A stretch of DNA of 57,036 bases from Pseudonocardiaceae bacterium. GTDB taxonomy: Bacteria; Actinomycetota; Actinomycetes; Mycobacteriales; Pseudonocardiaceae. A program made the position numbers and the translations under genes. Below, one piece after another: positions 28,841-42,995 of this stretch. Where the stretch lies: NCBI GenBank assembly GCA_050701375.1, contig JBOHFC010000266.1, positions 1 to 57,036 of the forward strand. The letters run 5' to 3'. The notes below the pieces were generated by a model. The model ran no database searches, was not told the origin of the DNA, and saw only the letters and a list, made by a program, of their open reading frames with translations. Numbering within the stretch: the first letter of the stretch is position 1; each line of letters opens with the position of its first letter.

Positions 28841-30424
<1,584 letters not shown>

Positions 30425-30483
30425 GCCGGCGGTGCCGGGCTCGTGCTTGGTCCGGCACCCAGACCACGCAGGGAAGGGGTCGC

Positions 30484-31080
30484 ATGACGACGAACCCGCG
30501 CTCCGGACAGTCCGTCACCAGGTGCAGTCCATCGCAGATGCGGGCCATGATGGCGGGCTTCCCGACCGGCGTCAGCATCGTGACGGCGATGGAGCCCGCC
30601 GGACCGCCCAGAGGCATGACGTGCTCCTCGCTGTGCAGCGTCACGCTGACGCCGCCCACGCTCCTGATCTGTCTACGGGGGCAGAGCCCCACCCTGTATG
30701 CCATCCGGACCAGCGGGACGTTCGCCGTGAACCTCCTTCACGCCGAGGCCCGCGCGACAGCCCAGCTGTTCGCCTCCAGTGCGGTAGACAGGTTCGACCG
30801 GGTGCTGTGGCATGCGGACCCGGACAGTGCGGGCCCGCACCTCCCGCAGGACGCGCACCTCGTCGGCGACTGCCGTGTCATCGACGTCCAGTTCGTCGGT
30901 GACCACGCCGTCGTGTTCGGCGAGGTCGTGCGGGTCATCCAAGGACAGACACAACCGCCGCTGCTCTACGGACTTCGGCACTACGCGACCTGGCACGCAT
31001 CCGTCATGCACGACGACGTCGACTCGAGCGAGCGAGCCGCATCCACCTGCCCTGCCGCAGCACTCCGCCTGGAACGTTGA
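30484..31080 (+). CDS. NAD(P)H:flavin reductase (halogenase partner, RebF/PrnF-like)
   Basis: MAGFPTGVSIVTA....GPPRGMTCSSLCSVTL.PPTLLICL is a flavin_reduct domain signature. Confidence 0.9.
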   Translation: MTTNPRSGQSVTRCSPSQMRAMMAGFPTGVSIVTAMEPAGPPRGMTCSSLCSVTLTPPTLLICLRGQSPTLYAIRTSGTFAVNLLHAEARATAQLFASSAVDRFDRVLWHADPDSAGPHLPQDAHLVGDCRVIDVQFVGDHAVVFGEVVRVIQGQTQPPLLYGLRHYATWHASVMHDDVDSSERAASTCPAAALRLER

Positions 31081-31090
31081 GGAGCAGACG

Positions 31091-32275
31091 GTGTCATTAC
31101 CCCAGCTCGAAGTAAACGCGCCCGGTTTCCTGGACGACCAGGACCAGCTGCTCGACGCGGCACGCGCACGTCATCCGTTCGCCGTCAGCGAGCGGGGTGT
31201 GGAGATCCTCGGCTACCCCGAGTGCCAGGCCCTGTTGCGCGACCGGCGGGCACAGAAGGACCACATGGCCCTCGTCGAGCGGCTCGGCATCACCGATCCG
31301 GAGGTCATCGCGTACAAGCGCAGGATACTGGTAGGGCAACGGCTGGACGCCAACCGCGACCGGATGCGGTCGGTACTCTCACGTGCGATGTCGGCCAGGC
31401 GGATGGACCGACTGCGGGCCGAGACCCGGTCGGCGGTCCACCGGATACTGGATGGAATCCCGGCGCGGCGCCCGGTCGACTTCGTCACCGAGGTCGCCTC
31501 CCTGGTGCCGTCCACGTTCTTCTGCCGGTGGGTTGGCCTACCGGAGGAGGACGCCCGCTTCGTCAGCGCCCTGTCGGACGTCATGCTCAAGATCTTCTGG
31601 ATGGACCCGGCCTACACCGAGCGCATCGAGGCCGCCTACAGCCGGCTCTTCGCCTACATGGACCGCCAGCTGGACACCCTCCGGTCCGACCGGGAGGAGG
31701 GCTTCCTCGCCCACCTGGCACGGGAGCAGCGGGACGGCAACGTCAACCCGACGGAGGTGCGCGACTGGGTGATCTTCGCTCTCGAGGGGAGCACGGACAA
31801 CACCGTCCACCAAATCGCCCTGCTGCTGGGCCGCCTGCTGGAGACACCCAGCCTGTGGGACCAGGTCCGGCGGGACCCCGCCCTGGTCGACATTGTCACC
31901 GACGAGAGCATGCGGCTGGACGCGAGAACCCGGGCCATCCATCGGCTGGCGGCCGACGACATCGAGGTACCGGGCGGCGTGATCAGGACCGGAACGGACA
32001 TGTTCTTCTGGGTGCGGGCGGCCCACCTCGATCCCCGGGCGTTCCCGCAGCCGCACAGGTTCGACATCCACCGGCAGCGGACGCCCGGGCACCTGATGTT
32101 CGGCCGCGGTCCGTACTCCTGCTTGGGGCGGTGGATGGCCCGGATGGAGGTGCAGGAGACCCTACGCGCCGTGCTCGAGCGTTTCCCGGGCGTCCGGCTG
32201 GCCGGTGTTCCCCGACGGTCGGTCGACATGTTCTCGCTCGCCGCCGAGTACCTTCCGGTCGTGCTCGAGCCGTGA
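31091..32275 (+). CDS. cytochrome P450
   Basis: GTG 31091 with a GAGGAG RBS, 10 nt after the reductase stop. Cys pocket FGRGPYSCLGRWMA. The 487-aa ORF from 30812 is an upstream extension overlapping the reductase gene. Confidence 0.9.
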   Translation: MSLPQLEVNAPGFLDDQDQLLDAARARHPFAVSERGVEILGYPECQALLRDRRAQKDHMALVERLGITDPEVIAYKRRILVGQRLDANRDRMRSVLSRAMSARRMDRLRAETRSAVHRILDGIPARRPVDFVTEVASLVPSTFFCRWVGLPEEDARFVSALSDVMLKIFWMDPAYTERIEAAYSRLFAYMDRQLDTLRSDREEGFLAHLAREQRDGNVNPTEVRDWVIFALEGSTDNTVHQIALLLGRLLETPSLWDQVRRDPALVDIVTDESMRLDARTRAIHRLAADDIEVPGGVIRTGTDMFFWVRAAHLDPRAFPQPHRFDIHRQRTPGHLMFGRGPYSCLGRWMARMEVQETLRAVLERFPGVRLAGVPRRSVDMFSLAAEYLPVVLEP

Positions 32276-32417
32276 TCCATTCCGGTGCACGGCACATCCC
32301 TCCATCAGGAGCTCTTTCCGGGCGGTCGGTTCGCCAATCAGATCGACCGTTGGACGGCGTGCACGAGAACGAGAACGCTGCGTTTGAGCCAGCGACAGGA
32401 TCTGGAGGCGGTCACGC

Positions 32418-32891
32418 ATGAACATCCTCATTCACCTACTCCCCGGCGTCGCCGTGCTTGCCTGCTCGGCCGTGTACGGCGCCGACCTGTTCGCGGCGAT
32501 CGTCCTACGTTCAGCTTTGTCCGAAGTAGACGACCAGACGCTCACGCACACCATGGGCCACGTGCACAGGTACGGTGACCGGCGGATGCCCGTCCCGTTC
32601 GTCCTCAGTGTCGCCGCCAGCCTGCTGAGCATGGTGGCAGCGGCACTGGCCGGACGTACGGCGGTCGCGGTGGCCAGTGCAGTCGCAGTCGCCGCTCTCC
32701 TCTGCTGGATCACGGTCTACCTTCGAGTCAGCGGGCCGATCAACCGTAAGCTCACCGCTGCGGCCGTCAACGGAACCCCTCTCCCCGAGGCACGCGCTAT
32801 GCAACACCGCTGGGACAGCGTGGTTCCGTTCCGCCTCATTCTGCAGGGTATCGCCGTCGCCGCGTTGTGCACGGCGCTCGCATTGGCCTGA
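32418..32891 (+). CDS. DUF1772-like (anthrone-oxygenase-like) small membrane protein
   Basis: 157 aa, 4 TM segments, and pattern ..AVYGADLFAA.V...AL......H.YGDRRMP....PIN..L...............RW...V..R. A GGAGG RBS is present. Confidence 0.55.
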   Translation: MNILIHLLPGVAVLACSAVYGADLFAAIVLRSALSEVDDQTLTHTMGHVHRYGDRRMPVPFVLSVAASLLSMVAAALAGRTAVAVASAVAVAALLCWITVYLRVSGPINRKLTAAAVNGTPLPEARAMQHRWDSVVPFRLILQGIAVAALCTALALA

Positions 32892-32931: not shown

Positions 32932-34461
32932 TCATGACGAGGCCGCTCCCTCCTCGTTATGCAACGGCCGTGCCGGGTCGAGGGTATGCGTCACGGCCAG
33001 CGCATTGGCCGCGCCGGCACCGGCCCGCCCATCCGCACTGCCTGCCCAGGCGTCACCGTCCACCTTGGTCCGCGAGGCACCACCGGCGGGCTTGGGCAGC
33101 TCGCCGAACTTGGGCCAGTACTGCCGGTACTTCCGGACCGCCTCCTTCCCTACCCGGTCCGCGAGCAGCTTGGCCACCTCGCTGGCCGAGCACTGTCCGC
33201 TTCGGACCAGACGAATAGCGGCGCGGGCAATTCTGGGTGGTGTGAGTACCCGGTAGGGCGAAAGTCGGTGTGACATCACCCGATCGATCAACAGGATCTT
33301 GGCCTTCGGATCGTCCCCGATTATCCGCAGCATCTCGCGCTCCAGCGGGCCGAGCGCACCGGCCTGGGCAAAGTCGTAGGCCAGCCAGTACATTGGGGTG
33401 GCATCTGCATCTCGCCACTTCCACCACCGCTTCGTCACGCGGTCGACTGCGGCTTGGTCCCGGGCCGGCACCAAAGTGATGTCGGTGGCGAACCGCTTGG
33501 CTTGGCGCAGCGCATCCGAGATGCCCTGCGCGATGGTGGGGTCCTTGAAATGCCCGGCGTCCCCGATCAGCGCCCAGCCTGGGCCGGCCGACTCGCGGAA
33601 ATAGCCAGGTAGATAGGCGGTGCCGACCGGCCTGGTCACCCGCCGCGCCGCGCTCAGCACCGGCTGCAACTGCGGGCACTCCGCGACTAGCGCATCATAG
33701 CTTTCCGGAAGGTTCCGTTTGAACTCGGCGAATTCCTCCATCCCGGGGGCCACCACCACGGTGAAGCGGTCATTGTCCGAACGGAAGGCGATAGTCAGCT
33801 TCGCGCCGTCCCGGTACTGATGGCCGGGCGGCAGCCCGTCGTCCTGCACGTCGACGAAGTCTGCCCAGAACGCGAAACGCTGGTTGGCCGTCGTGTTGTA
33901 GGTACGCGAACCGGCTAGTTCGGCAACCCGCGAGTTGCGGCCGTCCGCCCCAACCACTAACGCCGCGCGCATTTCATACTGCTTTTCCTTGCTGCGTACC
34001 ACCACGCCCTCGACACGGCCACCAGCGTCTCGGATCAGCTCCACCAAGGACGTGTGCTGGCGGACGTCGACCCCTTCCGCGATGGCCCGATCTAGCAGGA
34101 AACCGTCTAGCAGCTTGCGGCTGACACTGATGCCGCCCGGCGGCTGGCCGACATCCGGATACACCGGGGCGTCGAGATTCACATTGTCGTAGTCGACCCG
34201 CACCGCATCGACGAACGGCGCACCGGTGCTCCTGAGCTGGTTGAGCAGACCGAGTTCAGCCAGGACGCTCACCCCAGACACCTGCAACAGATGTGTGGAC
34301 AACGTATCGCTGGGAAAACCGGCGCGATCAACCAGTACTACCCGGCGGCCCGCCCTGGCCAGGTGAATCGCAAGCGACGCTCCGGAGATCCGGGCGCCGA
34401 CCACAACCACATCAGCGCTGTCGGGAAAAGGCTCAGGGTAGGGCTGCTCAGGAAAAGACAT
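32932..34461 (-). CDS. FAD-dependent oxidoreductase (geranylgeranyl-reductase / PHBH-like fold)
   Basis: DVVVVGARISGASLAIHLARAGRRVVLVDR dinucleotide fold and LIGDAGHFKDPTIAQGISDA. No WxWxIP halogenase motif. The start is ATG 34461, overlapping the UbiA stop by 14 nt. Confidence 0.8.
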   Translation of the reverse strand: MSFPEQPYPEPFPDSADVVVVGARISGASLAIHLARAGRRVVLVDRAGFPSDTLSTHLLQVSGVSVLAELGLLNQLRSTGAPFVDAVRVDYDNVNLDAPVYPDVGQPPGGISVSRKLLDGFLLDRAIAEGVDVRQHTSLVELIRDAGGRVEGVVVRSKEKQYEMRAALVVGADGRNSRVAELAGSRTYNTTANQRFAFWADFVDVQDDGLPPGHQYRDGAKLTIAFRSDNDRFTVVVAPGMEEFAEFKRNLPESYDALVAECPQLQPVLSAARRVTRPVGTAYLPGYFRESAGPGWALIGDAGHFKDPTIAQGISDALRQAKRFATDITLVPARDQAAVDRVTKRWWKWRDADATPMYWLAYDFAQAGALGPLEREMLRIIGDDPKAKILLIDRVMSHRLSPYRVLTPPRIARAAIRLVRSGQCSASEVAKLLADRVGKEAVRKYRQYWPKFGELPKPAGGASRTKVDGDAWAGSADGRAGAGAANALAVTHTLDPARPLHNEEGAASS

Positions 34462-35392
34462 TGACGACCACCAACCCGAGGACGGCGACTCGGAGGGCCA
34501 AGAATCCGTAGTTGCGACGATTGCGCCAATAACCATGCAACCCGTTACGCAGCACGTAGAACTGCATCAGCCAGGCCGGCAGCAGGCCCAGCGGCGTCCA
34601 GGGGCTAAGCACAGCGAACGCGGTGCCGGCGATGGCCAGCGCCCATGAGGTAACGAACATGACAACGACGAAGGCCAGATTGGTACGCTGCGAGGTACGG
34701 GCAGCCACGGTGCGCCGGCCCACGCTGTGATCGTCTGCGGCGTCGGCCGTATTGGAACAGATCAGCACTTGCACCAACCACATACCGAAGAGCACACCCT
34801 GGATCAGAGCGGCTGCGCTGACCTCGCCGACCGCGGCGCCGAAAGGCAGCCATATACTGGCCGCCAGGGTGATCCCGGTGAGCGCCTCACCGCCACCGAA
34901 AATGCGATAGCTGAAGTTGATCCCAGCGGAGTACTGCGCGCCGAAGATCGTCACCAACAGCCCGCCGACCAGTGCCCACCAGGGACGGAAACCAGCGACC
35001 GCCCAGAACACCATCACGCAGGCCGAAGCCACAACCACCGAACTGTAGGCGAAAACCCTCGCGGTGGCGACGGTGACCGTGCCCTGCACCAGTGGTTTAA
35101 CCTGGCTGCGTTTGCGTTCCGGCGCGTAATTGCGGATATCACTGCCATCCAGGAAACCGGTGATGTCGTCGAAGGCATGGCTTGCGCACACTGTAAAGCC
35201 GATGGCGATCAGGAAGAGCAGGCACAGCATGGTCGAACGAATATGCGGCACGCCTTGGCCGACCAGCAGCGACCAGGCTACAATCGGCCCTGTCCAGATG
35301 TCGTACAGTTTGAGTTTGCCCAGCTGCGCCAGTGCGGTCACAGTCTCGATCAAACGGCCTGACGGCGCCTGCACTGCATGCGTTTCGGACAT
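34448..35392 (-). CDS. UbiA-family integral membrane aromatic prenyl/alkyl transferase
   Basis: About 8-9 TM segments and an Asp-rich motif SHAFDDITGFLDGSDIRN (NDxxDxxxD-like). The start is set at ATG 35392. The upstream 88 codons of the ORF are non-coding-like. Confidence 0.75.
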   Translation of the reverse strand: MSETHAVQAPSGRLIETVTALAQLGKLKLYDIWTGPIVAWSLLVGQGVPHIRSTMLCLLFLIAIGFTVCASHAFDDITGFLDGSDIRNYAPERKRSQVKPLVQGTVTVATARVFAYSSVVVASACVMVFWAVAGFRPWWALVGGLLVTIFGAQYSAGINFSYRIFGGGEALTGITLAASIWLPFGAAVGEVSAAALIQGVLFGMWLVQVLICSNTADAADDHSVGRRTVAARTSQRTNLAFVVVMFVTSWALAIAGTAFAVLSPWTPLGLLPAWLMQFYVLRNGLHGYWRNRRNYGFLALRVAVLGLVVVNVFS

Positions 35393-35453
35393 CACCACCG
35401 CCTTTTCCGGAATCGAGCAACGTCCGGGTCGGCAATTAATTTCGTTCTGGGGA

Positions 35454-35930
35454 ATGGAGTTCACCGTGGACGAGCGAACCAGCGGGATTGTGCGCGGAGT
35501 TGTGTCGGGAGCCGCGGCCACCGCCGTCTTCACCTGGACGAGCGCACGGTTGAAGAAACACACTGCCACGCACGGTGCGGTGCAGCCGATCCAGGTCTCC
35601 TCCGCGCTCACCGGCGGCGCGCCGCAGGCCGATCCCGGGCGACGCCCGCTCACCAACGCCGTACTGCACTGGGGCTACGGCGGCTGGGGCGGTGTGCTCC
35701 GCGTGCTGTTGATGCGCAGGGGGCTCACCGGCTGGCGAGCCGACCTCACCCAACTCGCCGTGTTCTGGCTGCCGTGGCGGCTGCTGGCGCGGGCGCACCC
35801 GTCCGCCGAACGGCCATCCCGCAGAGAAGAAAACGTCGCACTGTACACGGATCTCGGCAAGCATGTGGTATACGTGCTGACCGATCGCTTGGTACACGCC
35901 CTGCTGGCCAGACGAGCCGGGCGACGCTGA
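35454..35930 (+). CDS. hypothetical small protein, divergent from the UbiA gene
   Basis: 158 codons from ATG 35454 with very high GC3. This is preferred over the overlapping minus-strand ORF 35436-35951. No family was recognised. Confidence 0.5.
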   Translation: MEFTVDERTSGIVRGVVSGAAATAVFTWTSARLKKHTATHGAVQPIQVSSALTGGAPQADPGRRPLTNAVLHWGYGGWGGVLRVLLMRRGLTGWRADLTQLAVFWLPWRLLARAHPSAERPSRREENVALYTDLGKHVVYVLTDRLVHALLARRAGRR

Positions 35931-35947
35931 AAGTTGCATCGTCGCCA

Positions 35948-37429
35948 TCAAACCCCTGCCCTCAGCGTGACCGTGCCGTTCCAGCCGTCCACCACCGCCT
36001 GCTGTCCTATTTGCTCGTCCGGAATGGACAGTCCGGCGACGAACGGGATGCCCAGTTCGCGGCAGACTATCGCGACGTGGGAGAGCACGCTGCCGTACCG
36101 GCTCACTACGCCGTCCGGAAGCACGGCGAGCACGTAGTTGCCGTCCACCCGGTCGCCGACCACAATCCGGCCTTCCTCGCCGTGGCTTGCGCGGACCAGC
36201 ACGCCTTCCGCCCAGCCAGGGGCCAGCGCAGTAGCCACGCCTGTGCTGCCGGCCGGGGTCGGTCGAATGACCCCGGCCAGCCCGCGGCGGCGCTGCTGGA
36301 GATCGACCGGATATTCGGTCACGGCGGCCTGCTCCAGCTCCTCGCTGCGCTGGTCGGTCAGCCTCCGCCGGGCGCTGGCGCTCAGCTCGCGAAGCTCACC
36401 GACGCCGAGCAACGCGGCTTCATCGGCTTTCGCTGAGAATGCGCCTATGTCCAGCAGCACCCGGGTGCAATGCAGGGCACGCAGACCGATCTCCTTGGAC
36501 CTCTCCCGTTCACCGAGTGCCAGACCGAGCATCTTCATCGCCTGCTCGTAGATCGGGCCAAGCGCGGTGCCCAGCGGAACCGACGCCTCATCCGCGACGA
36601 GTTCGGTGCCCACCTTTTCACGGTTGCCCAGGATCGACGCGGCTGCGAACAACCTGGCCTGGGAGAACCGGCCGAACACCTCGCCGGCGTCAGCGACCTC
36701 GTAATTGTTCAACCGGTCCACGTCTATGGTCAGTGCGCCGGCCCGCGAGCTGGCTCCCTGCCCGTCGTCTTTGCGGTGCGCACTGGCCCGCAACAGTTCA
36801 AGCGCGGTCGCATCGTCGTACTGCATCCGCAGCAGCCGCCTCGTCAGCGCGGCCGCCGCATACACGACGGTGGTGGTGCGGATATGCAGCGCCCAGGCGG
36901 CGCGACCGGCCTCGATGGCCGCATCACACGCGGTTCCAGCCTGCCAGCTGCTGCCGGTCTCCACCGCCGCCAGCACGCCGGCCTCGGCGCGTGCCAGCGC
37001 CGCGTGCGCGGTGCCGAAGGCGGCCGCGTTGTCGAACACCAGCCGCAGCGTCCGCGGCAGGCGCAACGCCGCCATGGTCCGGCTCGGTTTCGGCCGCCGG
37101 GCCACCTCTGGGCCCGGCCCCCCGAGTAGCAAGTCCCAGATCCCGGCCGGGTCGATCACCCGCAGCTCGTCGACCAGCCGTTCGGTGGTGGTCATATTGA
37201 AGTACGGCCGGAACCCGAAGTAGCTGACGTACTGCGGGCGAGGACCGCTCGGCTGCTCGCGGGCAAACTTCCGCGCCGCGGCACGGAACCCCTGTTCCAT
37301 GCCGGCACCGATAATCGACCAGCTCAGCGGGGACAGCAGCTCCGGGCAGACCTCGCGGAAGTTGTAACCGCTGTGCACCGCGTCCACGACGGTGCTGGGC
37401 GTGTCGAGGGAAAACATGGGCAGGCTCAT
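35948..37429 (-). CDS. PEP-utilising-enzyme mobile (swivel His) domain protein with a large N-terminal non-ATP-grasp domain
   Basis: C-terminus ...YGSVLSHVAIVCRELGIPFVAG... (PEP-utilizers domain). The N-terminus begins ..NFREVCPELLSPLSWSI.., reminiscent of the substrate domain of rifampin-phosphotransferase-like PpsA homologues. ATG 37429 overlaps the upstream stop (ATGA). Confidence 0.75.
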   Translation of the reverse strand: MSLPMFSLDTPSTVVDAVHSGYNFREVCPELLSPLSWSIIGAGMEQGFRAAARKFAREQPSGPRPQYVSYFGFRPYFNMTTTERLVDELRVIDPAGIWDLLLGGPGPEVARRPKPSRTMAALRLPRTLRLVFDNAAAFGTAHAALARAEAGVLAAVETGSSWQAGTACDAAIEAGRAAWALHIRTTTVVYAAAALTRRLLRMQYDDATALELLRASAHRKDDGQGASSRAGALTIDVDRLNNYEVADAGEVFGRFSQARLFAAASILGNREKVGTELVADEASVPLGTALGPIYEQAMKMLGLALGERERSKEIGLRALHCTRVLLDIGAFSAKADEAALLGVGELRELSASARRRLTDQRSEELEQAAVTEYPVDLQQRRRGLAGVIRPTPAGSTGVATALAPGWAEGVLVRASHGEEGRIVVGDRVDGNYVLAVLPDGVVSRYGSVLSHVAIVCRELGIPFVAGLSIPDEQIGQQAVVDGWNGTVTLRAGV

Positions 37430-38424
37430 GAGGGCAGTTCTCGCAGTCGGGCTATCTCGTGATCGAGGGTGCGGATCAGGTATCCGCGGTCGGCCGGTAC
37501 GGCAACCCGCCCGGCGTCCACAAGTTCGCGCAAGCAGCCGAGCTCGAGATCCCAGTGCGCGGTGCAGTAGTCGAAGACCGCACGCTCCATCGGCAGGTCC
37601 AGCCAGCGCGGCTGGACGACCGCGGCCAGCAACCTCGCCAACCCGTGGTGTCGGATGCGCTTCGCGCGCGCCCCATATTTGACGTTCACCAGGTCGAGGA
37701 CCTCGGCGAGGGTGGGCGACGCAGGATCGACCGCCCATACCGACGATCCGCCGGTACCGTACCTGACCCGGTCCAACACCACCTGTGCGCAGAAATCCGA
37801 CGGCAGGCACCAGTACCGGTTCGAGCCCAGCACCGGCAGCGGCCAGCCGGCGAACAGGAGGCGCAGCAGTTCGAACACCGCCTGCGGTTTGGCCGGGCGC
37901 CCCAGCTCGTCCGAACCGGCGAGCACATGTCCGGCTCGCACGATGTCGATCGGCAGGCCGGAGCCACGGGCCATCCGTTCCCCCTGGATTTTGGCCCACT
38001 CGTAGAAGTTCCGGTGCCTGCCCTGGGGTTGGTAGTCGCTGCGCATCCGCTGCCGCACGTCGCCGGTGGCCAGCAGGCTGGACACCAGCACCACGTTCCG
38101 AAGCCGTTCACAGCTCTTGGCGAACCGCAGCGCACCGCGCAGCGGCACCAGGTGCTCGGACTGCGCCTTGGACAGCGGCACCGACAGATCGAAACTGCCG
38201 ACGCTCACCACCACCGAGGTCACCTCCGCCGCGAGCTGGTCGGCTTTGTCCTCGTCGAGTCCGAGGAAATTCCGCCGGGCGTCGCCGACGTGCACCCTCA
38301 CCTGCGCGCCCAGGTGCGGGGCGGGACGCCGGGTCAGGCCGTGCACTTCGAGGCCGCCTGCCGACGCCGACGCACAGACCGCCGAGCCGACCCAGCCGCC
38401 GGCACCGATCACAAGAACACTCAT
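37426..38424 (-). CDS. NAD(P)-dependent SDR (epimerase/thioester-reductase-like, NAD_binding_4 type)
   Basis: MSVLVIGAGGWVGSAV Rossmann N-terminus. ATG 38424 abuts the upstream stop; an alternative GTG lies at 38433. Confidence 0.7.
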   Translation of the reverse strand: MSVLVIGAGGWVGSAVCASASAGGLEVHGLTRRPAPHLGAQVRVHVGDARRNFLGLDEDKADQLAAEVTSVVVSVGSFDLSVPLSKAQSEHLVPLRGALRFAKSCERLRNVVLVSSLLATGDVRQRMRSDYQPQGRHRNFYEWAKIQGERMARGSGLPIDIVRAGHVLAGSDELGRPAKPQAVFELLRLLFAGWPLPVLGSNRYWCLPSDFCAQVVLDRVRYGTGGSSVWAVDPASPTLAEVLDLVNVKYGARAKRIRHHGLARLLAAVVQPRWLDLPMERAVFDYCTAHWDLELGCLRELVDAGRVAVPADRGYLIRTLDHEIARLRELPS

Positions 38425-39470
38425 GCCGGCCACCCCGCATAGTAAGAGTTGATTACCGGTAGTTGCGGCCGGTGGGGCATGCCGAGCGTGCGCACGAGGC
38501 TGCGGACGGATACGTCACAACCCAGCCCGGAGCTGGCGAACACGGTCTTCGAGGCGAAGTACCGCAGGCCGATTACCGCGGAATTCTTGGGGCTCTCGTT
38601 CAGCCGGTCGGCCTGCTGCGAGACCGCGCGTAGCCACCGGGCCGGCATCCGGACCGGGCGGGGGAACAACCGGGTGTCGCCGTGCGTGGCCGCGGCGGCC
38701 TCCTTCGCAAACGCTTCCACTAGCGGCGCGGCCGCGCCTTGGCTGATATTGCGCACGACGACGTCCCGCGGCACCTCGTCCAGCGCACTGAGCAACTTGG
38801 CTGCCACCAGGTCGCGTGGACAGATGTCCAGCCTGGCGCCGGAGGCAAACGGCAGCACCGGCCACATCCCGGTCTGGATGATCCGAGCGAATGGCACCTT
38901 GGTCGCCCCAGAGCGCACGCCTGGCACCGGCTCGAAGTCGCCGGACAGCGCCGGGATACGGGCGATCACCGCAGGCACCCCGTGTGCCCGGCAGATCCGC
39001 GCCACCGCCCATTCGCCGCGGAGTTTGGTGCGTTCGTATTTGGTGAGCTTCGGCCGCTCTTCCAGCAGGACTTCGTACACTTCCTCGCCGTGGTCGTAAC
39101 CGGCGTACAGCGAGCTGGCGTGCACCAGGGTGGCGCCCAACGTGCTGGCTAGTTCCGCGGAGTTGGTGGCGCCTTCGACATTGATTTCCACCAACCGCGA
39201 CCACGGCGCCGACCAGGACACGTCACCGGCCAGATTGATCACTGCGTTGACTTCGCCCCGCAACTCGGCCACCAGGTCGTCGGGCAGGCCCCAGTTCGGC
39301 CGGCGCACATCGCCGGGCACACCGCGCACCTGAGCACCGGTGCGGCGTTGCACGGTCTTGGCGCGGTTGGGCCAGTCACCGCCGCGCAACAAGGCCACCA
39401 CTGGCTGATCGATCTTGCGAAGGAGTGCGGTGCCGAGGAATCCGGTCGCCCCGGAAACAAGGACGGTCAT
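38421..39470 (-). CDS. thioester-reductase / fatty-acyl-reductase-like SDR (NAD_binding_4)
   Basis: MTVLVSGATGFLGTALL....VVALLRG........V...........V.GDV..PNWGL.......L..EV.AVINLAG.V is typical of terminal reductase domains. ATG 39470 overlaps the malonyltransferase stop (ATGA). Confidence 0.8.
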   Translation of the reverse strand: MTVLVSGATGFLGTALLRKIDQPVVALLRGGDWPNRAKTVQRRTGAQVRGVPGDVRRPNWGLPDDLVAELRGEVNAVINLAGDVSWSAPWSRLVEINVEGATNSAELASTLGATLVHASSLYAGYDHGEEVYEVLLEERPKLTKYERTKLRGEWAVARICRAHGVPAVIARIPALSGDFEPVPGVRSGATKVPFARIIQTGMWPVLPFASGARLDICPRDLVAAKLLSALDEVPRDVVVRNISQGAAAPLVEAFAKEAAAATHGDTRLFPRPVRMPARWLRAVSQQADRLNESPKNSAVIGLRYFASKTVFASSGLGCDVSVRSLVRTLGMPHRPQLPVINSYYAGWPA

Positions 39471-40393
39471 GCGTCTACCTCCAGCCGTGTCCCAGCAAGG
39501 CAGACGAACTTCACGATGTGCTCGCGCCGGCCAAGTTTGTGCAACGTCTCGCCGGGACCGGCGTCCCACACCCGCTCGACGCCGAGGTCACGGACCGCCT
39601 TGGTGGCGTCCAACCAGCGGACCGGCAGCAGCAGAGCCCGGATCAGCAATTCACGGAGTTCGCCCGGAGCGGTGTGCGGGCCGGCGTCGATAGTGGACAC
39701 CACGGTGGTACTGGCCGGTTTGAACGGCACAGCCTCCACGGCTTCGCGCCACAGCACGATGGCGTCAGCCATCAGCGGCGAATGAAAACTGCCGCCGACC
39801 GGCAGCACCTCGGCCAGTACCCCGAGCTCCCCTGCGATGGTCATGGCCTGCTGCGCGGTGTGGGTGTCACCCGAGAGCACGGTCTGCCGCCTGCCGTTGA
39901 GCCCGGCTAGTTCCAGCACGCCGCCGGAGCGGGCGATGGCCTGACGGCGGATCCATTCGATTCCGACCAGATCAGCGCCCATCACCGCGATCATGGAACC
40001 GGACCGCGCCTTCTGCTGTACGTAACAGATCTGGCCCCGGCGCTCGGCCAGTGCCAGCCCGTCCCACGGGTCGAGGACACCGGCCTGTGCCAGTGCGGTC
40101 AGCTCGCCGAGGCTGTGGCCGAGCACCGCAGCCGGGGAGGCGTCCTGGCCGAACATCTCCTCGACCGAGGCCAATCCGCACACGTAGGTCGCGGGTTGCG
40201 CCATCCTGGTGTCGTGAAGGTTCAATTCGGACGGATCGAGTGCGAAGTGGTCCAGGAACGCAGCCGCCAGCGGATGCTCGCGGTAGCGGGTCAGCGCGTC
40301 GATGGTGGCATCCAGCTTATTGCCCTGACCGGGAAACGCGATGGCCAGACCGTCCGCTGCGGACAGTTTCCGGGCGGGTTCGGCAGTGCTCAT
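39467..40393 (-). CDS. ACP S-malonyltransferase (FabD-like)
   Basis: AFPGQGN and LGHSLGELTALAQAG (GHSxG nucleophile elbow). ATGA overlap with the KR stop. Confidence 0.9.
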   Translation of the reverse strand: MSTAEPARKLSAADGLAIAFPGQGNKLDATIDALTRYREHPLAAAFLDHFALDPSELNLHDTRMAQPATYVCGLASVEEMFGQDASPAAVLGHSLGELTALAQAGVLDPWDGLALAERRGQICYVQQKARSGSMIAVMGADLVGIEWIRRQAIARSGGVLELAGLNGRRQTVLSGDTHTAQQAMTIAGELGVLAEVLPVGGSFHSPLMADAIVLWREAVEAVPFKPASTTVVSTIDAGPHTAPGELRELLIRALLLPVRWLDATKAVRDLGVERVWDAGPGETLHKLGRREHIVKFVCLAGTRLEVDA

Positions 40394-41130
40394 GAGATGG
40401 AGATCCCACCGTCGATGGAGAGCACCTGGCCGGTCATGTAGTCCGCGTCCAGCAGCAGCTCGACGCCTTTGGCGATTTCGTCCGGGGTGCCGAGGCGGCG
40501 GAACGCGGTGCGGTCCACAAGGGCCTTCCGCACCTCGTCAGGAACCTCCTCGGTGAGTTCAGTTGCCATCAGCCCCGGTGAAAGCGCGTTTACCGTCACT
40601 TTCCGCTTGCCGCATTCCAAGGCCAGCGAGCGGGTGAGCCCCATTACCCCAGCCTTGGACGCCGAGTAAGCGGTCTGGCCCTTGCTGCCGATCAGCCCGG
40701 CCGGCGAGACCACGTTGATGATCCGGCCCCAGCGCTGACGGAGCATGCTCGGCAGTACGGCCCGGCAAGTGTGAAAGGTGCCGATCAGGTTGACGTTGAT
40801 GGTGCGGGTCCAGTCGTCGACTGACTGGGTTGCCATCAAGCCGTCCATCCGCACTGCGCCGGAGTTGACCAGTACCGAGACCACGTCGAGCTCTTCGTGC
40901 ACCTGCTCGACCATCGCCTTTGCCGATGCCCAGTCCGCAATGTCGGCCTGGACCACCGCGCTCGGCAGGCTTAGCTCGGCGGCGACCTTCTTGGCACGGT
41001 CCAGGCCGCTGGTGTAGTGCAGCGCGAGCCGCAACCCGCGCCGATCCAATACCTTGGCCACCGCGGCACCGAACGCGCCGGACGCGCCGATGACCAGCGC
41101 GATCCTGTTCTCCTTGGGGTCGCCGATCAC
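40390..41130 (-). CDS. 3-oxoacyl-ACP reductase (FabG-like SDR)
   Basis: ALVIGASGAFGAAVA, NSGA, and YSASKAG catalytic Tyr/Lys. GTGA overlap with the upstream stop. Confidence 0.9.
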   Translation of the reverse strand: MIGDPKENRIALVIGASGAFGAAVAKVLDRRGLRLALHYTSGLDRAKKVAAELSLPSAVVQADIADWASAKAMVEQVHEELDVVSVLVNSGAVRMDGLMATQSVDDWTRTINVNLIGTFHTCRAVLPSMLRQRWGRIINVVSPAGLIGSKGQTAYSASKAGVMGLTRSLALECGKRKVTVNALSPGLMATELTEEVPDEVRKALVDRTAFRRLGTPDEIAKGVELLLDADYMTGQVLSIDGGISIS

Positions 41131-41828
41131 TGCGTCCTCGCAGTGGCTCGCGCGGCGGACAGCCAGGACTGCAAGGCGGCGACCGCACCTGCCGGGCGCG
41201 GCACCGCAGCCAGCGCCGCCAGCAGTTCGGACACGCCACCCAGGTCGTCCGGGCTTGCCCCGGCCGGGGCAAGCAGCACCGCGGCCGCGGTGGAGTCCAC
41301 GGTGTCCGGCAGCAAGTGCCGGTGCTCGTCGGCCACGTCGAAGGCGACTAGTAGGGCGCAGTCGGCGTTGCCGTCCACCAGATGACTCGCGGCGACCACG
41401 GTCATCAACGCGAGGCTGTCCACCTCGCCGGTGTAGTGCACATTGGGGCCGCGGAAACCACCCGCGATGGACAGCTGGCAGATCGGGTTGTTCGGCATCC
41501 GCTGGAGATAGTCGCCGACCCCTTTGGGGTGCAGGTAGAAGCTGCTGAGCTCGGCCTCGGACGGCTGGGCCGCGACCGGCTCAGGCTCCGGGGTGTCCGG
41601 GTCCCAACTGCTGACCGTCAGCAACGCTACCCGGTCCAGCTCGCCGATGGGCTGGTGCCGGTACAGGCTCAGCCCGGCCGCGAACGGTGCGAGGGAGACC
41701 CGTTCGAGCAGCCGGTTGACCTTACGATGGGCGTTTTCCCTGGCGTAGCGGCGCAAATCGTCCGGCAGCTCGCCGGCTCCGAGGGCGCCGACCACCCGGA
41801 TTTCATCGTTAGCTGCGGGTTTCGTCAT
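41127..41828 (-). CDS. short ketosynthase-like partner (CLF-like, no catalytic Cys)
   Basis: 233 aa, resembling only the N-terminal half of a thiolase fold. It has NNPICQLSIAGGFRGPNVHYTGE where a KS would carry the active-site Cys. It lies directly downstream of a KS and is a paralogue of 45343-46050. Confidence 0.7.
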   Translation of the reverse strand: MTKPAANDEIRVVGALGAGELPDDLRRYARENAHRKVNRLLERVSLAPFAAGLSLYRHQPIGELDRVALLTVSSWDPDTPEPEPVAAQPSEAELSSFYLHPKGVGDYLQRMPNNPICQLSIAGGFRGPNVHYTGEVDSLALMTVVAASHLVDGNADCALLVAFDVADEHRHLLPDTVDSTAAAVLLAPAGASPDDLGGVSELLAALAAVPRPAGAVAALQSWLSAARATARTQ

Positions 41829-41834
41829 CGCGTG

Positions 41835-42995
41835 TTAGACCTTCCCGAGAATCAGCGAGGCGTTGTGGCCGCCAAAACCGAAACTGTTGGTGATGACGTA
41901 GTTCAGTTCGAGTTCGCGCGCCTTTGGGATGTAGTCGAGGTCGCAAGCCGGGTCCGGCTCCTCGAAATTCGCCGTGGGCGGGACGACCCCGTCACGCAGC
42001 GCCTTCACGCAGATGATCGTTTCGATGGTTCCGGCGGGTGCCATGGTATGGCCGAGTACACCCTTGGAGGAACTGATCGGCACTTCTTCGGCGGCTTGGC
42101 CGAGCGCCTTACGGATGGCCAGCGTCTCGCACCAGTCGTTGTCCCTGGTGCTGGTGCCGTGCGCGTTGATGTAGTCGACGTCGGCTGGGCACAACCTCGC
42201 GTCGGCCAGTGCCCGGCTTATCGCATAGGACGGTCCGAGTGCGTCCGGTGGGGAGGCCACCGAGTGGTAGGCGTTCTGCGCGGAGCCGAAACCCCTGATC
42301 ACGGCCAGCGGATCGACACCCCGGGCGCGGGCGTGCCGTTCGGATTCCAGCACCACGAAACCGGCTCCTTCGGCCATCAAGAAACCGTCGCGGCGGGCGT
42401 CGAATGGGCAGCATGCCTCCGCTGGATCGCAGTCGCGCACGGTCATTGCATATAGCGAGCAGAAGGAGAAGAAGTCGACCTCGCGGAGCATCGAATCGGC
42501 GCCACCGGCCACCACCACGTCGGCTTGGCCGGACTGGATCAGTTTCACGCCGGAGCCGACCACGAGCGCACCGCTCGCGCAGGCTCCGTAGACTGAAGAC
42601 GCGCGCGCCGCACCGGACGCCTCGCGCATAGCGTCAACCACGTCCTGCACGTACGCGAGCAGCGGTCCGCGGCCGGGTCGCGGGAGCTGGCGTTCTCCGT
42701 GCGTGGCGACCAATGCGATGTCGATGGCGTCGGTATGTGGGGTCAGTCCGGCGTCGGCCAGCGCCTCAGCCAGCGCCGATTCGCCGAACTTGATTGCCAG
42801 TGAGGTGTCGGCCGGCGCCTCGTGCTCGTAGCCGGGCACCGGGGCGCCGAACTTGGCGGGGGCTTCGTACAGCGGGAACCGCTCGATCGGTCGACCGCAT
42901 GGGATGCCGTCGACCACGCGCTGCCAGGTGTCTTCGGCGGTCCAGCCGGCGGGGCTCACCACCCCGACGCCGGTGATCCAGACACCGTCAGACAC
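41835..42995 (-). CDS. beta-ketoacyl-ACP synthase (KS, FabF/type II PKS-like)
   Basis: YGACASGA (Cys), INAHGTSTRDND and LGHTMAPAG (His/His). The start is placed at GTG 42995 (VSDGVWITGVG) by analogy with paralogue KS2 (MSDGVWITGLG). An alternative GTG lies at 43013. Confidence 0.9.
   Translation of the reverse strand: MSDGVWITGVGVVSPAGWTAEDTWQRVVDGIPCGRPIERFPLYEAPAKFGAPVPGYEHEAPADTSLAIKFGESALAEALADAGLTPHTDAIDIALVATHGERQLPRPGRGPLLAYVQDVVDAMREASGAARASSVYGACASGALVVGSGVKLIQSGQADVVVAGGADSMLREVDFFSFCSLYAMTVRDCDPAEACCPFDARRDGFLMAEGAGFVVLESERHARARGVDPLAVIRGFGSAQNAYHSVASPPDALGPSYAISRALADARLCPADVDYINAHGTSTRDNDWCETLAIRKALGQAAEEVPISSSKGVLGHTMAPAGTIETIICVKALRDGVVPPTANFEEPDPACDLDYIPKARELELNYVITNSFGFGGHNASLILGKV

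What the first reader, a model, noticed from the sequence alone, without database searches (positions are those of the whole stretch)
32932..39470. Reductase - kinase - UbiA gene order suggests a non-isoprenoid (polyketide-derived) phosphate/diphosphate donor for a UbiA transferase
Reading the minus strand, the gene order is:
- Two NAD_binding_4 thioester/fatty-acyl-reductase-like SDRs (38421-39470 and 37426-38424).
- The His-domain kinase component (35948-37429).
- After a small divergent gene, a UbiA-family membrane transferase (34448-35392), overlapping by 14 nt with a GGR/PHBH-like FAD oxidoreductase (32932-34461).
No polyprenyl-diphosphate synthase, MEP or mevalonate gene is present in the window.
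Speculative model: the KS/KR/MaoC system makes a 2-enoyl or polyenoyl-ACP. The two reductases take it to the allylic alcohol. The split dikinase phosphorylates it. The UbiA enzyme then uses this prenyl-diphosphate mimic to alkylate the Trp-derived aromatic acceptor. The FAD enzyme modifies the chain.
This is inference from gene content only. It would be a new way to feed a UbiA transferase.
Basis: inference. Interest (0 to 1): 0.7.

Follow-up and report, generated by a model that had tools for sequence, protein, structure and literature searches.

The report
Polyketide-alcohol kinase cassette beside UbiA transferase
An uncharacterised actinomycete gene cluster appears to build an unsaturated fatty chain, reduce it to an alcohol and phosphorylate it right beside a membrane "prenyl" transferase, so the transferase may be fed a home-made mimic of an isoprenoid; this is plausible but unproven.

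Summary
All genes sit at the stated coordinates with the stated domains, and the window holds no isoprenoid-supply gene.

New evidence:
- The "His-domain kinase" (B) folds like the substrate-binding plus swivel-His domains of rifampin phosphotransferase. This is the H-component architecture of two-component small-molecule dikinases. Its ATP-grasp partner (A) is a truncated true PPDK.
- ACP-KS-CLF-KR-AT-Red1-Red2-B is a conserved cassette. It is invariably followed by small ORF-UbiA-FAD in 13 related loci across at least five genera.
- More distant cassettes also sit beside UbiA genes, from at least two unrelated UbiA subfamilies.
- In Antrihabitans the PKS is replaced by fatty-acid ligase, ACP and an MbtN-like acyl-ACP dehydrogenase. 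That route also gives a 2-enoyl-ACP.

Production of an allylic alcohol phosphate, functionally tied to UbiA, is therefore fairly well supported.

That this ester is the UbiA donor remains inference (about 0.37):
- Relatives of the kinase make monophosphates, not diphosphates.
- One relative carries DXS.
- Two cassettes lack a nearby UbiA.
- The FAD enzyme is not a clear geranylgeranyl reductase.

No publication on this system was found.

The parts
47206..47550 (-). Acyl carrier protein, first gene of the PKS-reductase-kinase operon
   Evidence: PP-binding 27.9 bits. 68-92% identical in related loci.
46047..47213 (-). Ketosynthase KS1
   Evidence: ketoacyl-synt and Ketoacyl-synt_C.
45343..46050 (-). 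Short chain-length-factor-like partner CLF1
   Evidence: Weak Ketoacyl-synt_2 (PF13723) hit, E 1.5e-4, below cutoff. A short partner of this kind is conserved next to the KS in all cassettes.
44645..45400 (-). MDMPI_N/DinB-family protein; start codon uncertain
   Evidence: MDMPI_N 61.6 bits and TIGR03083 76 bits.
44090..44581 (-). SRPBCC (Polyketide_cyc2) protein
43379..44080 (-). Phosphopantetheinyl-transferase-like protein
   Evidence: Weak AASDHPPT_N and ACPS hits, both below cutoff.
41835..43013 (-). Ketosynthase KS2, the one syntenic with the minimal cassette
   Evidence: ketoacyl-synt and Ketoacyl-synt_C. 61-89% identical in the 13 related loci and 51-55% in the distant cassettes.
41127..41828 (-). 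Short CLF-like partner CLF2
   Evidence: No Pfam hit. Conserved position and 43-81% identity in the 13 related loci.
40390..41130 (-). Ketoreductase (SDR)
   Evidence: adh_short 174 bits and KR domain.
39467..40393 (-). FabD-like malonyl-CoA:ACP acyltransferase
   Evidence: Acyl_transf_1 64 bits. TIGR00128 fabD 138 bits.
38421..39470 (-). Red1, stand-alone thioester-reductase-like SDR
   Evidence: NAD_binding_4 93 bits. GATGFLG and YERTK motifs, invariant in 13 lineages.
37426..38424 (-). Red2, second thioester/aldehyde-reductase-like SDR, 30% identical to Red1
   Evidence: NAD_binding_4 53 bits. GAGGWVG and YEWAK motifs, invariant in 13 lineages.
35948..37429 (-). B: substrate-binding domain plus swivel phospho-His domain of a small-molecule dikinase, with no ATP-grasp domain
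   Evidence: PEP-utilizers domain at residues 420-486. AlphaFold model with pLDDT 84. It matches rifampin phosphotransferase 5fbu/5fbt/5hv1 at E 1e-12, TMq 0.56. His451 aligns with the phospho-accepting His of that enzyme.
35454..35930 (+). Small conserved ORF of unknown function, opposite strand, between B and UbiA
   Evidence: Present at this position in 11 of the 13 related loci, elsewhere in L012, not detected in L027; also next to the FAD homologue in L049. No Pfam or NCBIfam hit. Helical model with no PDB fold match.
34448..35392 (-). UbiA-superfamily membrane transferase, MenA/UBIAD1-like
   Evidence: PF01040 58.5 bits. Best solved relative is UBIAD1 8djk, E 5e-12. Asp motifs D75/D76/D82/D85 and N214/D217/D221 are conserved.
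32932..34461 (-). FAD-dependent oxidoreductase, translationally coupled to UbiA
   Evidence: FAD_binding_3 81 bits. Best PDB sequence hits are flavin halogenases (CndH 3e1t, 1e-17), but there is no WxWxIP motif. GG-red-SF scores below cutoff.
47807..48751 (+). MaoC-type double hot-dog dehydratase, divergent from the ACP gene; start uncertain
   Evidence: MaoC_dehydratas 77 bits.
48748..50244 (+). A: PPDK-type ATP-grasp plus phospho-His domain protein lacking the PEP/pyruvate domain
   Evidence: PPDK_N 120 bits and PEP-utilizers 83 bits. NCBIfam PRK05878 520 bits. Matches PPDK 1kbl at E 1e-89, up to residue ~515 of 873. GGSTSH motif present.
50235..50828 (+). Winged-helix regulator, conserved next to A in relatives
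   Evidence: Weak Rrf2, IclR and HTH_24 hits, all below cutoff. Syntenic in L008-L011, L013, L014 and L016.
24226..32891 (+). Trp-modifying operon, convergent on UbiA-FAD: P450 (24226-25455), VioC-like FAD monooxygenase fused to an ELFV amino-acid dehydrogenase (25278-27983), Trp halogenase (28883-30424), P450 (30812-32275), weak Anthrone_oxy (PF08592)-like membrane protein (32418-32891)
   Evidence: Trp_halogenase 462 bits; the P450s; FAD_binding_3 plus ELFV_dehydrog. VioC 150 bits. The operon occupies the place taken by Trp 2,3-dioxygenase in Amycolatopsis nigrescens.

Best explanation
The window carries an orphan biosynthetic gene cluster, probably from a Pseudonocardiaceae organism. The reading below gives my confidence for each step.

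1. A type II, enoyl-reductase-less synthase builds a 2-enoyl or polyenoyl-ACP. Its parts are ACP, two KS/short-CLF pairs, KR, FabD-like AT and a MaoC dehydratase. This is inferred from domain content.

2. Red1 and then Red2 release the chain reductively as the allylic (poly)enol (about 0.6).

3. B, an H-component of the rifampin-phosphotransferase / two-component small-molecule dikinase family, binds the alcohol. B phosphorylates it through its swivel His451. That His is charged by the PPDK-type ATP-grasp protein A (about 0.6 that an alcohol phosphate ester is the cassette's product).

4. The allylic (poly)enyl phosphate is passed to the MenA/UBIAD1-like UbiA enzyme as the electrophilic alkyl donor. 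It may first be raised to the diphosphate, possibly by A's own phospho-His domain. UbiA attaches the chain to a Trp-derived aromatic acceptor. In this window that acceptor would come from the halogenase, VioC-ELFV and P450 operon. In most relatives it would come from Trp 2,3-dioxygenase.

5. The coupled FAD enzyme then tailors the lipidated aromatic, as UbiH does after UbiA.

It is inference only, and the overall confidence given here refers to it.
For: B's identity:
- B's AlphaFold model matches the rifampin phosphotransferase RIF-binding plus His domains. The catalytic His aligns.
- Two-component relatives HpeHI, CreHI and PpsAB phosphorylate hydroxyl groups, releasing AMP (PMC12167813).
- A is a true PPDK N-terminal half.

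Coupling inside the cassette:
- AT/Red1, Red1/Red2 and Red2/B each overlap by 4 nt.
- The reductase catalytic motifs are invariant in 13 lineages.

Association with UbiA:
- The cassette is followed by small ORF-UbiA-FAD in all 13 related loci.
- Distant cassettes, with B only 27-44% identical, again sit next to UbiA genes: L016, L005, L046, L047 and probably L048.
- These UbiAs belong to at least two subfamilies with no significant mutual similarity. That implies independent recruitment.

The Antrihabitans locus (L016):
- The PKS is replaced by AMP-ligase, ACP and an acyl-ACP dehydrogenase whose best match is MbtN, at 257 bits, below that model's 700-bit cutoff. This route also gives a 2-enoyl-ACP.
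- An allylic alcohol therefore looks like the shared requirement, as expected for an ionising UbiA-type donor.

Isoprenoid supply:
- No MEP or polyprenyl-synthase gene lies in the window or in any cassette locus except L046.
- The nearest cassette-free UbiA relative (P0041, L003) sits with DXS and GcpE. This looks like a complementary distribution.
- A typical actinomycete Trp/UbiA meroterpenoid cluster carries its own polyprenyl synthase (zig cluster, PMC13307353).

Acceptor side:
- The genes that vary between clusters are plausible acceptor makers. They are Trp dioxygenase, a TrpE/G-like enzyme, or sugar genes. The cassette and UbiA stay constant.
Against: - All characterised relatives of B make monophosphate esters (PMC12167813). 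UbiA here keeps both Asp-rich diphosphate/Mg motifs. No monophosphate donor is known for the UbiA superfamily (own knowledge). No dedicated second kinase was identified.
- A is absent within 10 kb of B in L005, L006, L045, L046, L047, L048 and L049.
- L046 has a genuine DXS in the same operon as the cassette. That points to an isoprenoid donor there.
- L045 and L006 have the cassette but no UbiA within 10 kb, so the alcohol phosphate has uses that do not need UbiA.
- Every actinomycete already makes prenyl diphosphates, so the lack of a clustered synthase is weak evidence.
- UbiA-FAD is a separate transcription unit from the cassette.
- In most relatives A is fused or adjacent to Trp dioxygenase. 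That could mean A serves the aromatic branch.
- No known natural product matches the prediction.
Confidence: 0.37

Rival explanations
1. Ordinary prenyl donor. UbiA uses DMAPP, GPP, FPP or a longer prenyl diphosphate from primary metabolism. It prenylates the Trp-derived aromatic, or an aromatic starter acid, or the polyene or its phosphate. The last case would resemble lycopene elongase adding C5 to a polyene (own knowledge). The polyketide alcohol phosphate would then be the acceptor, a binding handle or a separate moiety.
For: - A genuine DXS lies in the cassette operon of L046.
- The closest cassette-free UbiA relative sits beside DXS, GcpE and CrtI-like amine oxidases.
- The UbiA keeps a standard diphosphate site. 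Its best solved relative is the prenyltransferase UBIAD1.
- UbiA recurs next to AMP-ligases (L003, L005, L016, L046), which suggests an aromatic-acid acceptor.
- The kinase family makes only monophosphates (PMC12167813).
Against: - It does not explain why two unrelated UbiA subfamilies were recruited to the Red1-Red2-B cassette.
- It does not explain why L016 replaces the PKS with another route to a 2-enoyl-ACP.
- About 20 cassette loci hold no prenyl synthase or MEP gene apart from L046.
- In the minimal cluster (L004) no enzyme other than UbiA is obvious for joining the chain to the aromatic.
Confidence: 0.3
2. Transient handle or leaving group, independent of UbiA. The phosphate is put on the alcohol, or on an aldehyde or enol oxygen, to direct a P450 or other tailoring step. 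It is later removed, as in the CreHI/CreJ/CreD logic of cresol catabolism (own knowledge). Alternatively it activates carbon for direct attack by the Trp-derived nucleophile, as proposed for the PigC/RedH condensing enzymes (own knowledge). UbiA would then act on something else.
For: - B gives weak NCBIfam hits to PigC and RedH (30 and 20 bits).
- CreHI belongs to the same two-component family (PMC12167813).
- P450 genes follow UbiA-FAD in most relatives.
- An alpha/beta hydrolase follows B in L005, L045 and L046, and an inositol-monophosphatase-like gene lies nearby in L050.
- Cassettes without a nearby UbiA exist.
Against: - The PigC and RedH hits cover only the shared His domain.
- Two conserved reductases argue for an alcohol rather than an aldehyde substrate.
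- The repeated UbiA association is left unexplained.
Confidence: 0.15
3. Lipid-phosphate acceptor or carrier. The cassette makes a polyketide-derived lipid monophosphate that mimics polyprenyl phosphate. Mycoketide phosphate from Pks12 in mycobacteria is a precedent (own knowledge). The UbiA enzyme would use this lipid phosphate as the nucleophile towards a diphosphate-activated donor. That is how decaprenyl-phosphate phosphoribosyltransferase uses PRPP (own knowledge). Sugars could then be built on it.
For: - The predicted kinase product is a monophosphate (PMC12167813).
- L006 and L047 join the cassette, and in L047 a subfamily-1 UbiA, to UDP-glucose dehydrogenase, epimerase/dehydratase, aminotransferase, GT4 and nucleotidyltransferase genes.
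- MMPL or ABC exporters lie in many clusters.
Against: - The UbiA profile finds UBIAD1, chlorophyll synthase and AfUbiA among solved structures. NCBIfam returns only MenA, UbiA and other prenyltransferase models. No phosphoribosyltransferase model or structure appears in either list.
- The related clusters hold aromatic-forming genes and no sugar genes.
- A need for 2,3-unsaturation is not expected for a mere carrier.
Confidence: 0.1

Closest known systems
Rifampin phosphotransferase (RPH-Lm; PDB 5fbs/5fbt/5fbu/5hv1)
   Same: B matches its rifampin-binding and swivel-His domains (E 1e-12, TMq 0.56). The catalytic His aligns. RPH phosphorylates a hydroxyl of a lipophilic polyketide using ATP via phospho-His.
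   Different: RPH is one chain with an N-terminal ATP-grasp domain, which B lacks. Sequence identity is only ~14%. RPH is a resistance enzyme, whereas B is embedded in a biosynthetic operon.
Two-component small-molecule dikinases HpeHI, CreHI and PpsAB (PMC12167813)
   Same: The enzyme is split into a substrate-binding plus swivel-His component (HpeH, like B) and a separate ATP-grasp component. They phosphorylate OH groups and release AMP.
   Different: Known members act on phenols in catabolism. Their ATP-grasp partner (HpeI) has no His domain, whereas A here is a PPDK N-terminal half with its own GGSTSH His domain. Several relatives of B have no partner gene nearby.
MenA / UBIAD1 aromatic prenyltransferases (UbiA superfamily)
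   Same: Pfam UbiA hit, two Asp-rich motifs, polytopic membrane protein. UBIAD1 is the best solved relative.
   Different: It scores far below the MenA and UbiA equivalog cutoffs (24-29 bits against 264-277). The first motif is DDxxGxxDGSD rather than NDxxDxxxD. It is clustered with a polyketide-alcohol kinase cassette and not with quinone or isoprenoid genes.
Aryl-polyene and other highly reducing type II polyketide synthases (own knowledge)
   Same: Discrete ACP, KS with a short CLF-like partner (weak PF13723 hit), KR, dehydratase, no enoyl reductase.
   Different: The dehydratase is MaoC-type. Release here is reductive, by two stand-alone reductases followed by a kinase. I know of no characterised system of this kind that does so.
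MbtM/MbtL/MbtN of mycobactin biosynthesis (own knowledge; NCBIfam model NF037942)
   Same: In L016 an AMP-ligase, an ACP and an acyl-ACP dehydrogenase (best match MbtN, 257 bits) stand where the PKS stands elsewhere. They would give a 2-enoyl-ACP.
   Different: The score is below the equivalog cutoff (700). In mycobactin the enoyl chain is transferred to lysine, not reduced and phosphorylated.
Mannosyl phosphomycoketide (Pks12) and phytol/farnesol salvage kinases VTE5/VTE6 (own knowledge)
   Same: Both are precedents for a lipid alcohol that becomes a phosphate or diphosphate and then enters isoprenoid-type chemistry. Mycoketide is a polyketide mimic of a polyprenol.
   Different: The enzyme families are unrelated. 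Mycoketide phosphate is a glycosyl carrier, not an alkyl donor. The salvage kinases act on true isoprenoids.

Membership tests
UbiA superfamily (PF01040) | Pfam model above the gathering score | tested here: met
   58.5 bits against 34.2.
UbiA superfamily (PF01040) | Two Asp-rich Mg/diphosphate motifs | tested here: met
   D75, D76, D82, D85 and N214, D217, D221 are invariant or nearly so in 15 sequences.
UbiA superfamily (PF01040) | Polytopic membrane protein | tested here: met
   At least 7 hydrophobic 19-residue segments by Kyte-Doolittle.
MenA / UbiA orthologues (quinone prenyltransferases) | Reaches the NCBIfam equivalog cutoff | tested here: not met
   ubiA_proteo 28.8 against 275. MenA models 24-27 against 264-277.
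UbiA superfamily | Uses an isoprenyl diphosphate donor | not testable with these tools
   Needs a membrane assay with prenyl diphosphates against synthetic alkenyl phosphate or diphosphate.
RPH-type / two-component small-molecule dikinase, H component | Swivel domain with the phospho-accepting His | tested here: met
   PEP-utilizers 37.5 bits. His451 in GSVLSH is invariant. It aligns with the phospho-accepting His of RPH-Lm in GGLMTH.
RPH-type / two-component small-molecule dikinase, H component | RIF-binding-like helical substrate domain N-terminal to the swivel domain | tested here: met
   Foldseek against 5fbu, 5fbt and 5hv1: E 1e-12 to 7e-11, TMq 0.56, ~600 aligned columns. A sequence profile alone reaches only residues 333-489.
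RPH-type / two-component small-molecule dikinase | ATP-grasp partner that charges the His | tested here: inconclusive
   A (48748-50244) supplies a PPDK-type ATP-grasp domain. It also carries its own His domain. It is missing within 10 kb of B in seven distant loci.
RPH-type / two-component small-molecule dikinase | ATP gives AMP plus Pi plus a monophosphate ester of a hydroxyl group | not testable with these tools
   Needs an assay with 31P-NMR or LC-MS. It is decisive for the mono- versus diphosphate question.
Thioester reductase / fatty acyl reductase SDRs (NAD_binding_4) | Pfam model above cutoff, plus GxxGxxG and YxxxK | tested here: met
   Red1 93 bits and Red2 53 bits against 20.1. The motifs are invariant in 13 lineages each.
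NRPS/PKS terminal thioester-reductase domain (TIGR01746) | Reaches the model cutoff | tested here: not met
   67.3 and 35.1 bits against 213. The best solved relative is a PKS reductase domain, 8v1x, at only E 4e-6 and 7e-3.
Geranylgeranyl reductase family (TIGR02032), for the FAD enzyme | Reaches the subfamily cutoff | tested here: not met
   84.7 bits against 158.8. UbiH/UbiF-type models score similarly, at 63-68 bits.
Flavin-dependent halogenases, for the FAD enzyme | WxWxIP motif | tested here: not met
   The best PDB hits are CndH, CmlS and PltA. No WxWxIP is present; the sequence reads FAFWADF.
Decaprenyl-phosphate phosphoribosyltransferase-like UbiA enzymes | Closer to that branch than to aromatic prenyltransferases | tested here: not met
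   The PDB profile search returns UBIAD1, chlorophyll synthase and AfUbiA only. The NCBIfam lists contain prenyltransferase models only. I did not verify whether either library holds a model for this branch.

The most novel reading that the evidence does not exclude
A polyketide- or fatty-acid-derived allylic alcohol is phosphorylated by a split dikinase. Both the beta and gamma phosphates of one ATP might be placed on the same oxygen through the two phospho-His domains of A and B, giving a diphosphate. The resulting non-isoprenoid 'pseudo-prenyl' (di)phosphate would be the natural donor of a UbiA-superfamily transferase. That enzyme would alkylate a Trp-derived aromatic, or sugars in other clusters, or might even cyclise the chain. 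This would be an isoprenoid-independent way to feed prenyltransferase-type chemistry.
Probability: 0.35. Interest if true: 0.85.

Novelty: new variant of a known kind. Interest (0 to 1): 0.66.

Why it matters
To my knowledge and in six literature searches, UbiA-superfamily enzymes use only isoprenoid diphosphates or PRPP as diphosphate substrates. A natural polyketide-derived donor would break that rule. It would link polyketide and "prenyl" transfer chemistry and give a route to unbranched alkenyl-aromatic lipids.

Whatever UbiA does, the cassette itself has no characterised precedent that I could find. It combines a type II synthase, two reductases and a rifampin-phosphotransferase-like kinase. 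It would extend the newly recognised two-component small-molecule dikinases from catabolism and resistance into biosynthesis.

The family is small. Only 41 clusters at 50% identity reach E 1e-30 among 1.84 billion representatives. It is compact, and it occurs in culturable strains: Amycolatopsis nigrescens, Saccharothrix sp. S26, Lentzea alba, Nocardiopsis alborubida and Antrihabitans spumae. The question is therefore directly testable.

Tried and rejected
- **PigC/RedH-type condensing enzyme as the identity of B.** The NCBIfam hits (30 and 20 bits) cover only the shared His domain. The fold match is to rifampin phosphotransferase. I kept this only as part of a rival.
- **FAD enzyme as geranylgeranyl reductase.** It scores below the cutoff.
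- **FAD enzyme as halogenase.** The motif is absent.
- **Phosphoribosyltransferase-type UbiA.** There was no hit.
- **Small ORF 35454-35930 as a second lipid kinase or phosphatase.** It has only 8 hypothetical homologues. It has no hydrophobic segments. Its confident helical model has no PDB fold match below E 0.6. This was a dead end.
- **Trp 2,3-dioxygenase in the window.** It is absent by tblastn.
- **Plasmid-borne copies of B.** None were found.
- **tRNA and Rfam features.** None were found.
- **Literature.** Six searches found no description of the system.
- **Polyprenyl-synthase detection.** This rested on Pfam listings and a crude second-Asp-motif regex, not on a proper profile search of every locus.
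- **Wider context sampling.** The look-up caps stopped further sampling. The second tier of B relatives (P0108-P0133) was not examined.

Full report
**Observation**

- Red1 (38421-39470) hits NAD_binding_4 at 93 bits, and Red2 (37426-38424) at 53 bits. The cutoff is 20.1.
- The 493-aa protein B (35948-37429) has a PEP-utilizers swivel domain only at its C-terminus.
- The UbiA protein (34448-35392) scores 58.5 bits on PF01040.
- The FAD protein (32932-34461) scores 81 bits on FAD_binding_3.

Start codons and overlaps were read from the sequence. AT/Red1, Red1/Red2 and Red2/B each overlap by 4 nt. UbiA and FAD overlap by 14 nt. A small ORF on the other strand (35454-35930) separates B from UbiA.

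The rest of the system lies around these genes.
- Upstream are ACP, two KS/short-CLF pairs, KR and a FabD-like AT.
- Divergent from the ACP gene are a MaoC dehydratase and a PPDK_N plus His-domain protein, A (48748-50244).
- Convergent on UbiA-FAD is a Trp-related operon. It holds a P450, a VioC-like FAD enzyme fused to an ELFV dehydrogenase, a Trp halogenase (462 bits), a second P450 and a small membrane protein with a weak Anthrone_oxy hit.

No polyprenyl synthase, MEP or mevalonate gene was found in the window.

**What the kinase is**

B's N-terminal ~400 residues have no Pfam hit. An AlphaFold model built on 16 homologues has pLDDT 84. It matches rifampin phosphotransferase of Listeria (5fbu, 5fbt, 5hv1) over ~600 columns, at E 1e-12 and TMq 0.56. 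His451 of B, in GSVLSH, is invariant in the family. It aligns with the phospho-accepting His of that enzyme.

B is therefore the rifampin-binding-like substrate domain plus the swivel His domain, without the ATP-grasp domain. This is the architecture of HpeH, CreH and PpsA, the H-components of the two-component small-molecule dikinases. Those enzymes phosphorylate hydroxyl groups and release AMP (PMC12167813).

A is different from their partner HpeI. A is a genuine PPDK N-terminal half. It scores 520 bits on PRK05878. It matches PPDK 1kbl at E 1e-89 up to residue ~515 of 873. It carries its own GGSTSH His domain and lacks the PEP/pyruvate barrel.

"Split dikinase" is thus a fair description. 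The known chemistry of B's relatives gives a monophosphate ester.

**The reductases and the synthase**

Red1 and Red2 are 30% identical paralogues. GxxGxxG and YxxxK are invariant in each across 13 lineages. Both are far from canonical terminal reductase domains: they score 67 and 35 bits on TIGR01746 against a cutoff of 213.

The synthase has KS, a short CLF-like partner, KR and a MaoC dehydratase. No enoyl reductase was seen. A 2-enoyl or conjugated polyenoyl-ACP is therefore expected, by inference from domain content.

**Comparative genomics**

The UbiA protein has 55-77% identical homologues in Amycolatopsis nigrescens, Saccharothrix, Nocardiopsis, Streptomyces and metagenomes.

I examined 13 related loci. 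The order ACP-KS-CLF-KR-AT-Red1-Red2-B-(small ORF)-UbiA-FAD is kept in them, except that the small ORF lies elsewhere in L012 and was not detected in L027. The pair MaoC and A is divergent from the ACP gene wherever that flank is in view. Most loci continue with a P450, DUF4386, SnoaL and an MMPL exporter.

Trp 2,3-dioxygenase is present in 11 of the 13. It is fused to A in L002 and L004, and it lies colinear with A in seven more. The window is the exception: it lacks that gene and carries the Trp-halogenase operon instead.

More distant homologues of B (27-52% identical) show that Red1-Red2-B, with an ACP-based chain-forming system, is a mobile cassette.
- L005: UbiA, an AMP-ligase, the cassette, a hydrolase and MaoC.
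- L046: the same type, plus a genuine DXS and a UbiA.
- L047: a UbiA, an ABC exporter, the cassette and aminosugar-type genes. Its sister locus L006 has no UbiA within 10 kb.
- L048: the cassette beside a divergent UbiA-like membrane protein.
- L045: the cassette with no UbiA in view.
- L049 and L050 are truncated contigs.
- L016 (Antrihabitans spumae): no KS at all. It has AMP-ligases, an ACP and an acyl-ACP dehydrogenase whose best NCBIfam match is MbtN, at 257 bits (below that model's 700-bit cutoff). Then come Red1, Red2, B and A, with a divergent AMP-ligase-UbiA-ADH operon and a fused TrpE/G-like enzyme.

The UbiAs next to the cassette fall into at least two groups with no significant mutual similarity. 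One group is the window clade with L016 and L047. The other is L005 with L046.

The B family is small. Only 41 representative clusters reach E 1e-30 among 1.84 billion.

**What this supports**

First, the cassette ends in an alcohol that B phosphorylates. This rests on translational coupling, the intact reductases and the fold of B.

Second, the alcohol is allylic. Two unrelated upstream routes both deliver a 2-enoyl-ACP: a synthase without an enoyl reductase, and a saturated fatty acid plus an MbtN-like dehydrogenase.

Third, the cassette and UbiA enzymes work together. A UbiA gene within 10 kb in five or six independent lineages, drawn from two UbiA subfamilies, is far beyond chance. I estimate a few UbiA genes per genome of several thousand genes (own estimate, not computed).

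Fourth, isoprenoid-supply genes are absent from the window and from all cassette loci except L046. The nearest cassette-free UbiA relative (P0041, L003) sits beside DXS and GcpE. A typical Trp/UbiA meroterpenoid cluster brings its own polyprenyl synthase (PMC13307353).

The allylic (poly)enyl phosphate ester is the electrophile that UbiA transfers to an acceptor, and the acceptor varies between clusters.

**What speaks against it**

- The UbiA protein keeps a complete two-motif diphosphate/Mg site. Its best solved relative is the ordinary prenyltransferase UBIAD1. The relatives of B make only monophosphates (PMC12167813).
- A second phosphorylation has to be assumed. A's own His domain is a candidate, but that is pure inference. 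A is also missing near B in seven distant loci.
- The conserved small ORF gave no clue. It has no family hit and no fold match.
- DXS in L046 points to a real isoprenoid there.
- L045 and L006 show that the cassette can exist without a nearby UbiA.
- The fusion of A to Trp dioxygenase might tie A to the aromatic branch instead.
- UbiA-FAD is its own transcription unit.
- The FAD enzyme is not a demonstrable chain reductase. It is below the geranylgeranyl-reductase cutoff and scores similarly with UbiH-type hydroxylases. Its best solved relatives are flavin halogenases, whose WxWxIP motif it lacks. A ring-tailoring role after lipidation is at least as likely.

**Rivals**

- Ordinary prenyl donor, with the polyketide part as acceptor, handle or separate moiety (0.30).
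- Phosphate as a transient handle or leaving group, unrelated to UbiA, in the manner of CreHI or PigC (0.15).
- The alkenyl phosphate as a lipid-phosphate acceptor or carrier, in the manner of mycoketide phosphate or decaprenyl phosphate (0.10).
- The donor model (0.37).

Only biochemistry or product structure can decide between them.

**Comparison with what is known, and novelty**

The parts belong to known families: the UbiA superfamily, RPH-type dikinases, PPDK, NAD_binding_4 reductases and aryl-polyene-like type II synthases. The UbiA, Red1, Red2 and the FAD enzyme each fail the curated cutoffs of the specific named families (MenA, UbiA, TIGR01746, GG-red-SF). They are therefore not orthologues of characterised enzymes.

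Six full-text searches found no description of the cassette or of a non-isoprenoid donor for a UbiA enzyme. I rate it a new variant of known kinds. There is a substantial chance, about one in three, that it hides a categorically new way of feeding prenyltransferase-type chemistry.

Noticed in passing
window 24226-32891 (+), compared with L001 12428-13219: The window lacks the Trp 2,3-dioxygenase found in 11 of 13 related clusters. In the same place, after UbiA-FAD, it has an operon of P450, a 901-aa VioC-like FAD monooxygenase fused to an ELFV amino-acid dehydrogenase, Trp halogenase, a second P450 and a small membrane protein with a weak Anthrone_oxy hit. The acceptor-making module seems to have been swapped. 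The start of the fusion ORF overlaps the first P450 and is uncertain.
   Followed up: partly
L002 1-817 and L004 1-1093; colinear hits in L008-L011, L013, L014 and L027: In most relatives the PPDK-type protein A is fused at its N-terminus to a Trp 2,3-dioxygenase domain. The products are 692 and 719 aa, with Trp_dioxygenase, PPDK_N and PEP-utilizers domains. I know of no described fusion of these domains.
   Followed up: partly
window 35454-35930 (+): A small conserved ORF sits between the kinase and UbiA in 11 of the 13 related loci (elsewhere in L012, not detected in L027) and next to the FAD homologue in L049. Its motifs HWGYGxWGG and FWLPWR are invariant. It has no hydrophobic segments and no family or fold match.
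   Followed up: yes
L016 (Antrihabitans spumae NZ_JBIMSN010000020.1) 2355-21399: A variant cluster without any ketosynthase. It has three AMP-ligases, an ACP, an MbtN-like acyl-ACP dehydrogenase, Red1, Red2, B, A, a UbiA, a Zn-ADH and a fused TrpE/G-like chorismate enzyme.
   Followed up: partly
L047 12348-21488 and L006 12398-21533: In forest-soil metagenome contigs the cassette is followed by UDP-glucose dehydrogenase, an epimerase/dehydratase, GT4, a nucleotidyltransferase, a DegT aminotransferase, a ~620-aa glycoside-hydrolase-like protein, an ADH and an aldehyde dehydrogenase. The first genes resemble an aminopentose pathway. This suggests a glycosylated or sugar-linked product.
   Followed up: partly
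window 32932-34461 (-): The FAD enzyme coupled to UbiA is closest in sequence to flavin-dependent halogenases (CndH, 1e-17). It lacks the WxWxIP motif, and the halogenase-type FPRxxIGES region (recalled from memory) reads FPSDTLSTH here. It may be a halogenase-derived oxygenase or reductase.
   Followed up: partly
window 4780-6123 (-) and 50876-52012 (-); also L004 18194-19300: DDE_5 transposase genes flank the region. One lies directly after the regulator at the cluster edge, and one sits at the edge of the Saccharothrix cluster. This is consistent with the cluster being mobile.
   Followed up: no
L046 14774-16657: A full-length, apparently genuine DXS (46% identical to a Streptomyces DXS) lies in the same operon as a distant copy of the cassette. 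It is the only isoprenoid-supply gene seen in about 20 cassette loci.
   Followed up: partly
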